From the NCBI RefSeq assembly GCF_013315695.1, contig NZ_CP054353.1: a stretch of 64,000 bases of DNA; one strand, 5' to 3'. The stretch is from Escherichia coli (GTDB lineage: Bacteria > Pseudomonadota > Gammaproteobacteria > Enterobacterales > Enterobacteriaceae). Position numbers: made by a program. Of this stretch, positions 57,001-60,000 are shown piece by piece; position 1 is the first letter of the stretch; every line of letters begins with the position of its first letter.

Positions 57001-60000
57001 TCGCCCCTGTCAGGGAGTGAAGAGACAATTTATCTTTACGCCGTCACGTCCCTGATGCTTCCAGGTAGAGAGGGGCTGGACGCAGGAGAAAAATGAAAGA
57101 GCCAGCGGTTATATTTTTGTCATGGCTGACGAGGAATGATGGAAGAAGGCGTTGTATGCCACACAACGCCTCACTGTTCATTTCTTCTTTTTCTCTGGTG
57201 GAACCCGATGAATAAGAGTTGCACTGGTTTCCGATGAGATGGCGATATACTCGGGCAAAGTATGCTGGCAGTTTTCCAACTGGTCAAAAATACCTGCTCT
57301 CGTCTGTTGCAATGCCTGCAGCATGCGGCGGCAATGCGCCTTGCTTTTACTAACCATCTTTCCTTCCTCTATCAGTCGCTGCGTGAACTCATCATGTAAT
57401 ACCAGGTAAATGCGGATGTTATCGGTTTTGGCTACGCAGCATAGTACAAAACGGACAGGTGCATCCCGGGACGGGGGAGGCGTCACATGTCCCTGTGATG
57501 GTTGTTCCGGGTAATGCACTGTGTGGGGCATAAAAATGTCCGATAATTTTACTTTCTACCGCAGTTAGTTGATTCGTTGGTCCTGGTAGCACATTGGGCG
57601 AGGATTTAAATGCCAGGCAACTGAAGGATGATGTTGCAAGGGAGATAGCGAGAATATTTCTGATTTTCATTTGATGATGCCTCTGTGTGAAATGACGGTA
57701 AACGACGCACTTGTGCCGGCACATAATAGCAAGCACCATAATAGATCAGATTCGATTCTTGCTGTAAGTGATAATCATTCTCGTTTTCGGGTCCTTTCCG
57801 TCGATCCAACAGGTTACGGGGCGGCGACCTCGCGGGTTTTCGCTATTTATGAAAATTTTCCGGGAACCATGTCCGGTTTCTCTTCAAGTTAACTATATGA
57901 AAAATAAAAAAAGAGGTCTTCTGTGAACCGGACATGCACAAAAAATAGACATGTAAGCCGGACATGACCGGTTTTGTTGTGATTGTGAAGTGAGAGTTTT
58001 TGCGAGGTGAGGAGTGGCTACGCAGACTGAAGTTGCCAGGCATTTAAGTCTGACCGATCGCCAGCTTCGCAGATTGCAGAAATTGCCGGGTGCCCCGATA
58101 TCGAATAAGCGAGGGCAACTGGATCTGGATGCCTGGCGCGATTTTTACATATCGTATCTGAGAAGAAGTAAAAACGATGTGCCTGATGGCGATAGCGAAG
58201 ACGACTATGAGGAGAAATTGCTTATTGCCAGATGGGAACTGACAGCAGAACAGGCTGTTACACAGCAGTTAAAAAATGAGGTGTCAAAAGGAAAACTTAT
58301 TGACACCGGGTTCTGTATTTTTGCCCTCAGCAAGCTGGCAATGGCGTTATCCAGTACGCTTGATTCCATCCCTTTATCCATGCAGCGACAGTTTCCTGAT
58401 TTAACACCGCGCCATCTTGACCATCTGAAAACCCTTATTGCGAAGGGGGCAAATCAGTGTGCGCGGGCGGGGGATAAATTACCGGATTTACTCGATGAAT
58501 ATATCAGAGCAACAACTGAATAATATGATGAGTGCTGTCACAACAGCATTACAGCCCCTGATAAGGGCATTGCCGGTGACGCCAGTTGAATGGGCTGATC
58601 AAAATTATTATCTGCCTAAAGAATCTTCATATGGTGAGGGAGAATGGAAAACGCTGCCGTTCCAGATCGCCATCATGAACAGCATGGGGAATGATCAGAT
58701 CCGGACTGTTAATCTGATTAAATCTGCCCGTGTTGGCTATACAAAGATGTTGCTGGGGGTGGTCGGGTATTTTATTGAGCATAAATCCCGAAACAGTCTG
58801 CTTTTTCAGCCCACGGATTCTGCCGCTGAAGATTTTATGAAGTCTCACGTGGAGGCGACGATTCGGGATGTGCCATGTCTGAAAGACCTTTCTCCATGGC
58901 TGGGGCGTAAACATCGTGACAATACTCTCACGCTGAAACGCTTTTCATCGGGTGTGGGCTTCTGGTGCCTGGGCGGCGCTGCCGCCAAAAACTACCGTGA
59001 AAAATCCGTGGACGTGGTCTGCTATGACGAACTTTCCTCGTTCGAACCGGATGTCGAAAAAGAGGGTTCGCCAACCCTGCTTGGGGATAAACGTATTGAG
59101 GGCTCTGTATGGCCCAAATCCATTCGCGGCTCGACGCCTAAAATCAAAGGCACCTGCCAGATCGAAAAAGCGGCCAACGAGTCGGCGCATTTCATGCGTT
59201 TTTATGTGCCCTGCCCGCACTGTGGGGAGGCGCAGTATCTGAAATTTGGCGATGAGTCCACGCCTTTTGGCCTTAAATGGGAGAAGGACAGCCCCGAAAG
59301 CGTTTTCTACCTCTGTGAACATCATGGCTGCGTGATCCATCAGTCTGAGCTTGACCAGAGCAACGGGCGGTGGATCTGTGAAAACACGGGGATGTGGACC
59401 CGCGACGGTCTGACGTTTTTCAGCGCTGCGGATAATGAAATTCCGCCGCCGCGCTCCATCACATTCCATATCTGGACGGCGTACAGTCCGTTCACCACCT
59501 GGGTACAGATTGTCTATGACTGGCTGGATGCACTGAAAGATCCCAACGGCCTGAAAACCTTTGTGAACACCACGCTGGGCGAGACCTGGGAAGAGGCCGT
59601 GGGCGAAAAACTCGATCACCAGGTGCTGATGGATAAGGTTGTGCGTTACACGGCTGCGGTGCCTTCCCGGGTGGTTTATCTGACGGCGGGCATTGACTCG
59701 CAGCGAAACCGTTTTGAGATGTATGTCTGGGGATGGGCTCCGGGAGAGGAAGCCTTTCTGGTGGATAAAATCATCATTATGGGGCGTCCCGATGAGGAAG
59801 AGACGCTGTTACGTGTGGATGTGGCGATCAACAAAAAATACCGCCATGCAGACGGAACCGAAATGACCATTTCCCGTGTCTGCTGGGACACCGGGGGGAA
59901 TTGTCTATCAGAGGTCAAAAAAACACGGTGTTTTCCGGGTGCTGCCGGTAAAAGGTGCATCTGTTTATGGCAAGCCGGTGATCACCATGCCAAAAACCCG

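What the first reader, a model, noticed from the sequence alone, without database searches (positions are those of the whole stretch)
59870..59910. Terminase large subunit split by +1 frameshift in a G6 homopolymer
The gpA-like ORF breaks after the conserved CWDTGG and resumes in the next frame at IVYQRSKKHG; deleting one G from the gggggg run restores a continuous terminase. Either the prophage is packaging-defective, or this is a homopolymer sequencing error.
Basis: seen in the sequence. Interest (0 to 1): 0.35.

Follow-up and report, generated by a model that had tools for sequence, protein, structure and literature searches.

The report
Prophage terminase broken by 11-bp deletion
The DNA-packaging enzyme gene of a lambda-like prophage in an E. 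coli genome is broken, not by an extra G in a G-run as first thought but by an 11-base deletion right next to it; this is an ordinary, strain-private prophage pseudogene.

Summary
The lambda/phage-21-type terminase large-subunit gene (58495..60412, 1918 nt) reads ...CWDTGG in frame 0 and resumes at IVYQRSKKHG in the +1 frame. The proposed cause is wrong. Intact relatives (E. coli prophages, phages PhiR12_1 and 21) also carry G6 and read GGGGGG ATC GAT GGC GAA ATT GTC (GG-IDGE-IV). The window lacks 11 bp (ATCGATGGCGA) immediately 3' of the run. Re-inserting them gives 642 aa, the length of all relatives. Removing one G gives 638 aa lacking IDGE, a segment present in lambda as IDPT. True G5 variants of this run exist in four other E. 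coli genomes, all annotated 'frameshifted'. The junction is absent from 5,426 complete E. coli genomes, the phage records, IMG/VR, JGI metagenomes and GTDB representatives. The assembly is otherwise clean: 35.4 kb is identical to E. coli MSB1_4I. So a real, strain-private deletion is more likely (~0.8) than an artefact. The product keeps the ATPase domain but loses half the nuclease domain and the C-terminal prohead-binding end, so the prophage cannot package itself. cosQ, cosN, Nu1, W, portal and protease are intact, so packaging in trans by a co-resident prophage is possible. This is ordinary prophage decay and of low interest.

The parts
57789..57795 (+). cosQ (GGGTCCT), packaging-termination subsite
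   Evidence: Aligns to the annotated cosQ of phage 21 (OL657228.1 42902-42908) without change.
57819..57830 (+). cosN, 12-nt cohesive-end sequence GGGCGGCGACCT
   Evidence: Identical to bases 1-12 of phage 21, annotated as the nicking site.
58014..58523 (+). Terminase small subunit (Nu1-type), intact, 169 aa
   Evidence: Pfam Phage_Nu1 E=1e-18. Same 510-bp length as the annotated intact gene in MSB1_4I, AVS0196 and PhiR12_1.
58495..60412 (+). Terminase large subunit (gpA-type) pseudogene, 1918 nt where 1929 nt is expected
   Evidence: Pfam GpA_ATPase 1.2e-55 plus GpA_nuclease split over two frames. Re-inserting 11 bp gives 642 aa, 99.1-99.2% identical to the intact alleles of PhiR12_1, MSB1_4I and AVS0196.
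58495..59898 (+). In-frame part, codons 1-468 (ATPase domain, first half of nuclease domain, ending CWDTGG)
   Evidence: Translation. Walker A K76, E179 and D401 equivalents are present by alignment to lambda gpA.
59893..59898 (+). G6 run (codons G467-G468), wild-type length
   Evidence: The same G6 is in intact L001, L003 and L004. G5 in L002, L012, L013 and L014 is annotated 'frameshifted'.
59898..59900 (+). Junction of the 11-bp deletion; base 59899 (A) is the orphan base left from codon I469 or E472
   Evidence: Pairwise alignments to L001 and L003-L006 all show a single 11-base gap here, missing ATCGATGGCGA.
59899..60096 (+). Out-of-frame tail of the truncated product (65 aa, NCLSEV...SHACG, then stop)
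   Evidence: Translation.
59900..60412 (+). Untranslated remainder of the gene in the +1 frame: I473 to the C-terminus, including the K497 and E586 equivalents and the prohead-binding end
   Evidence: ORF 59876..60412, Pfam GpA_nuclease positions 158-287, alignment.
60396..60602 (+). Head-tail joining protein W, intact; its start overlaps the normal end of the terminase gene
   Evidence: ORF list. Same length as the annotated gene in relatives.
60599..62191 (+). Portal protein, intact, 530 aa
   Evidence: ORF list. 1593 bp as in relatives.
62181..63686 (+). S49 peptidase / head protease-scaffold (gpC-type), intact, 501 aa
   Evidence: ORF list. 1506 bp as in relatives.
33747..33836 (+). tRNA-Ser(CGA), attachment site at the left end of the prophage
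   Evidence: ARAGORN. Annotation of the identical region in MSB1_4I.
33889..34914 (-). Prophage integrase ORF (341 aa); the identical sequence is flagged 'frameshifted' by PGAP in MSB1_4I
   Evidence: The discrepancy affects only about the last 25 nt.

Best explanation
The window comes from an E. coli closely related to strain MSB1_4I. It carries a lambda/phage-21-like prophage at tRNA-Ser, next to the yersiniabactin island. The prophage's terminase large-subunit gene has lost 11 bp (ATCGATGGCGA) immediately 3' of a normal G6 run. This puts the last 170 codons out of frame. The predicted product is 468 native residues (ATPase domain and the first half of the RNase-H-like nuclease domain) plus 65 nonsense residues. 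It lacks the rest of the nuclease domain and the C-terminal prohead-docking end. The prophage therefore cannot make a working packaging enzyme and is defective for virion production on its own (inferred from the sequence and from lambda genetics). cosQ, cosN, Nu1, W, portal and protease are intact, so its DNA could still be packaged by a compatible terminase from a co-resident lambdoid prophage or a superinfecting phage (inferred from precedent). The deletion is most likely a recent, neutral mutation private to this strain. It has only 1 nt of microhomology, so it probably arose by a replication or end-joining error. It lies inside a 1.7-kb recombinant patch of the gene.
For: The lesion is an 11-bp deletion. 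Alignments to intact genes in E. coli DA33133, PhiR12_1, phage 21, MSB1_4I and AVS0196 each show one 11-base gap after the shared G6. The repaired gene is 1929 nt / 642 aa, as in all relatives, and lambda gpA keeps the same segment length (GGIDPTIV). Gene identity: Pfam GpA_ATPase and a split GpA_nuclease, the cos-Nu1-A-W-portal-protease order, and Walker A K76, E179 and D401 aligned to lambda. Loss of function: the K497 and E586 equivalents and the whole C-terminus lie after the break. Lambda Aam42, which lacks only the last 5 residues, cannot dock on proheads and is lethal, but it is recessive and rescued in trans (PMC4856287). Real rather than artefact: window 1-35433 is base-for-base identical to the complete genome MSB1_4I. 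Over 24 kb of prophage there are only two other single-base gaps, both in a divergent intergenic patch, against AVS0196. All neighbouring head genes keep their exact lengths. Private: the 36-mer across the junction is absent from 5,426 complete E. coli genomes, JGI metagenomes, GTDB representatives and IMG/VR. Neither truncated product is on record. No protein among 5.8 billion clusters carries CWDTGGNCLSEV. Trans-packaging precedent: O157 Sakai Sp4 lacks an intact terminase and is still packaged, probably by the Sp14 terminase (PMC2669165). E. coli genomes that carry this terminase type have a median of 2 copies.
Against: No reads are available, so the 11-bp gap cannot be proven to exist in the real chromosome. 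It lies within a cluster of SNPs (59217-60961) relative to the otherwise identical relative MSB1_4I. That cluster could reflect mis-polishing with reads from a paralogous prophage rather than true recombination. The deletion being seen nowhere else fits a private mutation and an artefact equally well. The roles of K497 and E586 rest on my memory of the lambda literature and were not confirmed in an accessible paper. Only the left ~30 kb of the prophage is in the window, so the state of the tail genes and the presence of a helper prophage in this strain are unknown.
Confidence: 0.8

Rival explanations
1. Assembly or consensus artefact: the real chromosome has the intact 1929-nt gene, and the 11-bp gap was introduced during assembly or polishing, for example by mis-mapped reads from a paralogous lambdoid prophage.
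For: E. coli genomes often hold 2-5 copies of this terminase type, which invites mis-mapping. The gap sits inside a SNP-dense patch relative to the clonal relative. The junction is found in no other public sequence. The site combines a G6 run with a GATC motif, both known trouble spots for some sequencing platforms (my knowledge).
Against: The rest of the window has no indel noise: 35.4 kb is identical to MSB1_4I, and there are two other 1-bp gaps in 24 kb against AVS0196. Sequencing and polishing errors at homopolymers are typically 1-2 bp, not 11 bp. From 59428 to 60303 the window is otherwise identical to a genuine allele (PhiR12_1), so the patch is a real haplotype and not a noisy consensus.
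Confidence: 0.17
2. One reading: a +1 insertion (G5 to G6) in the homopolymer, either real or a homopolymer miscall, so that removing one G restores the ancestral terminase.
For: Removing one G does open the frame, giving 638 codons. Length changes of this G-run do occur elsewhere, as G5 in four genomes.
Against: Every intact relative examined has G6. The one-G repair yields a protein lacking IDGE, a segment present at the same length in phage 21 and in lambda (IDPT). G5 in an otherwise intact gene is annotated as a frameshift. This explanation would need both an in-frame 12-bp deletion and a 1-bp insertion at the same spot, where a single 11-bp deletion suffices.
Confidence: 0.01
3. Leaky or programmed +1 ribosomal slippage on GGG GGG A: a peptidyl-tRNA-Gly re-pairs one base downstream and produces some full-length terminase lacking IDGE, so the prophage keeps low packaging activity.
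For: The required shift is +1, and the G6 run allows exact GGG-to-GGG re-pairing. The resulting frame is open to the normal stop.
Against: There is no conservation: the arrangement exists in a single sequence. No 0-frame stop or hungry-codon context follows the run. The four deleted residues directly follow the conserved CWD465TGG motif in the nuclease fold and include D470, which is conserved in lambda, so even the slipped product may be inactive.
Confidence: 0.02

Closest known systems
Phage 21 gp2 / lambda gpA terminase large subunit (Pfam GpA_ATPase PF05876 + GpA_nuclease PF20454)
   Same: Same two domains and the same gene order cosQ-cosN-(cosB)-Nu1-A-W-portal-protease. The repaired protein is 642 aa, 91.4% identical to phage 21 gp2 and 66.2% to lambda gpA. 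The cohesive-end sequence is identical.
   Different: The reading frame is interrupted by an 11-bp deletion after codon 468. The small subunit and cosB are of the PhiR12_1 type (169 aa), not the phage 21 type (182 aa).
Intact alleles in the E. coli prophages of MSB1_4I and AVS0196 (WP_021569772.1, WP_016247622.1) and in phage PhiR12_1 (XSB41621.1)
   Same: 99.1-99.2% amino-acid identity after repair. In MSB1_4I the prophage sits at the same chromosomal site with identical flanks.
   Different: These alleles are intact at 1929 nt. The window also carries a different haplotype across 59217-60961.
G5 frameshift variants of the same gene in E. coli ExPEC XM, 95-3192, BEC1-S17-ESBL-09 and RM10809-3
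   Same: The same gene is broken within a few bases of the same spot, and PGAP annotates it as frameshifted.
   Different: Those are true 1-bp homopolymer contractions (G6 to G5). The window keeps G6 and has lost the next 11 bp.
Defective lambdoid prophages packaged in trans (O157 Sakai Sp4; Asadulghani et al. 2009, PMC2669165)
   Same: A lambdoid prophage without an intact terminase gene but with a cos site.
   Different: In Sp4 the small subunit gene nu1 is disrupted by an IS element. Here the large subunit carries a small deletion. Whether this strain has a compatible helper was not testable.
[quoted passage not shown]
   Same: Loss of the gpA C-terminus, which docks terminase on the portal. 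The mutation is recessive and complementable in trans.
   Different: Aam42 keeps nuclease activity. The window's product also loses half of the nuclease domain, so cos cleavage should fail as well (inference).

Membership tests
Lambda gpA-type terminase large subunit | N-terminal packaging ATPase domain (PF05876) with Walker A KSARVGY(S/T)K and the YDE acidic motif | tested here: met
   GpA_ATPase E=1.2e-55, profile 4-247 of 247. K76, K84 and E179 align with lambda.
Lambda gpA-type terminase large subunit | C-terminal endonuclease domain (PF20454) encoded as one continuous reading frame | tested here: not met
   Profile positions 3-159 are in frame 0 and positions 158-287 are in frame +1. The gene is 1918 nt, not a multiple of 3. 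It is therefore a pseudogene of this family, not a functional member.
Lambda gpA-type terminase large subunit | Position in the packaging module: cos, small subunit, large subunit overlapping W, portal | tested here: met
   cosQ and cosN at 57789-57830, Nu1 at 58014-58523, A at 58495-60412, W at 60396-60602, portal at 60599-62191.
Lambda gpA-type terminase large subunit | C-terminal prohead (portal)-binding residues are translated | tested here: not met
   Translation stops at 60096 in the wrong frame, so the last 174 native residues are missing. The importance of the C-terminus is described in PMC4856287.
Homopolymer-length error or slippage variant | Run length differs from that of intact relatives | tested here: not met
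   The window has G6, and so do intact L001, L003 and L004. The real G5 variants are L002 and L012-L014.
Programmed ribosomal frameshift site | The two-frame arrangement is conserved among relatives | tested here: not met
   All relatives have a single ORF, and the junction is unique to the window.
Programmed ribosomal frameshift site | Slippery sequence with a stimulatory element (pause codon, upstream SD-like sequence, downstream structure) | not tested
   The G6 run would allow +1 re-pairing. No 0-frame stop follows it. Stimulators were not analysed because the conservation test failed.
Defective (cryptic) prophage | At least one gene essential for virion production is inactivated | tested here: met
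   The terminase large subunit is truncated, provided the deletion is real.
Defective (cryptic) prophage | Failure to yield particles on induction | not testable with these tools
   Needs induction experiments.

The most novel reading that the evidence does not exclude
The G6 run and the bases next to it in lambdoid terminase genes form a recurrently mutable spot: four independent G5 variants plus this adjacent 11-bp deletion. The spot would switch prophage self-packaging off and, through +1 slippage on the G-run or reversion, partly on again. That would make it a contingency-like switch between autonomous and helper-dependent prophage states.
Probability: 0.03. Interest if true: 0.4.

Novelty: already known. 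Interest (0 to 1): 0.1.

Why it matters
It matters little beyond annotation. The gene should be labelled a terminase large-subunit pseudogene caused by an 11-bp deletion, not a homopolymer error to be 'corrected' by removing a G. That correction would create an artificial protein four residues short. For the strain's biology, this prophage cannot package itself, but it keeps cos and its head genes. It could therefore still be mobilised by a compatible co-resident lambdoid prophage, as documented in E. coli O157. The case also carries a method lesson: a frame break next to a homopolymer is not necessarily caused by the homopolymer, and comparison with an intact relative settles it at once.

Tried and rejected
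1. An extra G in the homopolymer. Rejected because the intact relatives have G6.
2. A noisy, indel-rich assembly. I suspected this because irp1 and irp2 appeared split into several ORFs. Rejected because those lesions (a 127-bp deletion and stop-creating substitutions) are shared base-for-base with the independent complete genome MSB1_4I and annotated there as pseudogenes.
3. A non-E. coli source such as Shigella. I considered this because no complete E. coli genome has the junction. Rejected because 35.4 kb is identical to E. coli MSB1_4I.
4. Searches for independent occurrences of the deletion all found nothing: exact look-up of both truncated products, the junction 36-mer in metagenome, GTDB and IMG/VR contigs, and the out-of-frame tail against 5.8 billion proteins (only unrelated frameshift fragments).
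5. A solved structure by sequence, to place the break in the fold. None was found, and I did not run a structure prediction because it would not change the verdict.
6. Literature support for the lambda K497 and E586 roles. It was not found in the accessible library, so those roles are marked as recalled. A search for a paper on the PhiR12 phages also found nothing.
7. The prophage integrase 'frameshift' as a second sign of decay. I down-weighted it because the same flag appears in diverged lineages including O157:H7 and only concerns about the last 25 nt.

Full report
**What is at the coordinates.** The sequence at 59870-59910 reads ...cgt gtc tgc tgg gac acc ggg ggg aat tgt cta.... ORF 58438..60096 has its biological start at the ATG at 58495, which overlaps the end of the small-subunit gene by 29 nt as in relatives. 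It translates to ...TISRVCWDTGG followed by 65 residues of unrelated sequence and a stop. ORF 59876..60412, one base further along in frame, reads ...GGIVYQRSKKHGVFRVLPVKGASVYGKP.... Pfam finds GpA_ATPase (E=1.2e-55) and GpA_nuclease profile positions 3-159 in the first ORF, and GpA_nuclease positions 158-287 in the second. The two pieces abut exactly in the profile.

**What the lesion is.** BLAST hits in related E. coli prophages and phages were consistently 11 bases longer than the query (612 vs 601, 2062 vs 2051). Direct comparison with intact genes shows all of them reading GAC ACC GGG GGG ATC GAT GGC GAA ATT GTC (D-T-G-G-I-D-G-E-I-V). These genes are from E. coli DA33133 (L001), phage PhiR12_1 (L003), phage 21 gp2 (L004), E. 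coli MSB1_4I (L005) and AVS0196 (L006). The window reads GAC ACC GGG GGG A ATT GTC.
- The G6 run (59893-59898) is therefore the normal state.
- The window has lost 11 bp, ATCGATGGCGA or equivalently TCGATGGCGAA, with a single A of microhomology. One orphan base remains at 59899.
- Re-inserting the 11 bp gives 1929 nt / 642 aa. That is the length of every intact relative, at 99.1-99.2% identity to the PhiR12_1, MSB1_4I and AVS0196 proteins, 91.4% to phage 21 gp2 and 66.2% to lambda gpA (641 aa).

**A useful control.** Four other complete E. coli genomes (ExPEC XM, 95-3192, BEC1-S17-ESBL-09, RM10809-3) do carry a contracted G5 run in this gene, and all four genes are annotated 'frameshifted'. 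'Reads showing G5' would not indicate an intact gene.

**Real or artefact.** Window 1-24000 matches the complete genome of E. coli MSB1_4I (NZ_LR898874.1) perfectly, and identity continues to 35433. Across the 24 kb of prophage from 40000 to 64000, the only indels against the AVS0196 prophage are two single-base gaps in a divergent intergenic patch near 44503 and the 11-bp deletion. The apparent fragmentation of irp1 and irp2 that first suggested a noisy assembly is shared base-for-base with MSB1_4I and annotated there as pseudogenes. It comprises a 127-bp deletion at about 11663-11673 plus stop-creating substitutions relative to intact irp1/irp2 in TUM14697. The assembly is therefore clean, and an 11-bp loss is not a typical homopolymer error.

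On the other side, the deletion lies inside a SNP-dense patch (59217-60961) relative to the otherwise clonal MSB1_4I. From 59428 to 60303 the window is identical to the PhiR12_1 allele apart from the deletion, so the patch is a genuine haplotype. That is most simply a recombination tract between lambdoid prophages, but mis-polishing from a paralogous copy cannot be excluded without reads.

The junction occurs nowhere else I could search:
- 5,426 complete E. coli genomes
- phage records
- JGI metagenome contigs
- GTDB species representatives
- IMG/VR
- exact look-up of both truncated products
- the out-of-frame tail against 5.8 billion protein clusters, which returned only four unrelated frameshift fragments

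I put a real, strain-private mutation at about 0.8 and an artefact at about 0.17.

**Consequence.** Aligned to lambda gpA, the in-frame part retains Walker A K76, K84, E179 and D401 (GIDSQ) and ends just after the conserved C463-W-D465-T-G-G468. The equivalents of K497 (GASVYGKP), E586 (RNEALD) and the whole C-terminus lie beyond the break. The roles of K497 and E586 are recalled from the lambda literature and not confirmed here. It is documented that the C-terminus of lambda TerL docks on the portal. Aam42, which removes only the last five residues, blocks packaging while being recessive and rescued in trans by wild-type terminase (PMC4856287). A product missing 174 native residues and half of the nuclease fold should therefore be null for both cos cleavage and prohead docking (inference). 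Premature termination about 300 nt upstream of the W start, which normally overlaps the end of A, might also reduce translation of W (inference).

**Context.** The prophage is integrated at tRNA-Ser(CGA) (33747-33836), beside mtfA. It is immediately adjacent to the tRNA-Asn-linked yersiniabactin island. cosQ (57789-57795) and cosN (57819-57830) are identical to those of phage 21. Nu1 (169 aa), W, portal and the S49 protease have exactly the lengths of their intact counterparts. The prophage thus remains a valid packaging substrate. E. coli genomes that carry this terminase type have a median of two copies. In O157 Sakai, the terminase-defective prophage Sp4 is packaged, probably by the terminase of Sp14, which has a near-identical cos (PMC2669165). 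Helper-dependent mobilisation is therefore plausible but could not be tested, because only this window of the source genome is available.

**Comparison and novelty.** This is a pseudogene of a well-known family, the lambda/21 gpA-type terminase large subunit, in a common E. coli prophage type. Small inactivating deletions in prophage structural genes are routine. Programmed frameshifting is not supported, because the two-frame arrangement is unique to this sequence. The only mildly notable points are that the homopolymer was a red herring, and that the same run shows true G5 variants in a few other assemblies.

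Noticed in passing
window 7990-17354 (irp1) and 17442-23549 (irp2), minus strand: Both yersiniabactin megasynthase genes are pseudogenes. 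irp1 has a 127-bp deletion at about 11663-11673, flanked by an ~11-bp repeat overlap, plus a stop-creating substitution near 12679. irp2 has an internal stop near 17970. All are shared base-for-base with E. coli MSB1_4I, whereas TUM14697 has intact genes. The island probably no longer makes yersiniabactin, while fyuA and ybtPQXS remain intact.
   Followed up: partly
window 33864-34914, minus strand: The prophage integrase next to tRNA-Ser is flagged 'frameshifted' by PGAP in MSB1_4I (identical sequence), in FY26 and even in O157:H7 SS TX 754-1. The ORF in the window is 341 aa and stops about 25 nt short of the annotated end. The same flag in diverged lineages suggests either an old tolerated C-terminal change, possibly linked to the attachment site, or an annotation-model artefact, rather than recent decay.
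   Followed up: partly
L002 3279-3330; L012, L013, L014 1511-1560 (other E. coli genomes): Four complete E. coli genomes carry G5 instead of G6 at the same run of the terminase gene, on two different allele backgrounds (GGC and GGT at the next glycine codon). All are annotated as frameshifted. These are either recurrent slippage or platform-specific homopolymer errors.
   Followed up: partly
window 38434-40039 and 59217-60961: There are two SNP-dense or non-homologous patches relative to the otherwise identical relative MSB1_4I: the immunity region and the terminase-to-portal junction. This indicates recombination with other lambdoid phages since the two strains diverged.
   Followed up: partly
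window 49368-49443 and 49544-49618, plus strand: Two prophage-borne tRNA genes lie downstream of the antiterminator gene. ARAGORN calls the first tRNA-Met(CAT), while PGAP calls the equivalent gene in relatives tRNA-Ile, presumably the lysidine-modified CAT type. The second is tRNA-Arg(TCT).
   Followed up: no
window 59898-59900 (deleted segment in relatives): The 11 bp missing from the window contain a GATC Dam site and the palindrome ATCGAT directly after the G6 run (GGGGGGATCGATGG). I could not tell whether this context favours deletion formation or sequencing trouble.
   Followed up: no
window 1-1765, minus strand: An inverse-autotransporter beta-domain gene is followed by an Ig-like-domain gene remnant, annotated as frameshifted, with an internal stop and partial, in both MSB1_4I and TUM14697. 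It is an older pseudogene flanking the yersiniabactin island.
   Followed up: no
proteins P0001-P0004 (public assemblies): Short terminase fragments in public E. coli assemblies carry other frame errors around the same G-run and the downstream A-run, several with multiple frame changes typical of noisy assemblies. None shares the window's junction.
   Followed up: yes
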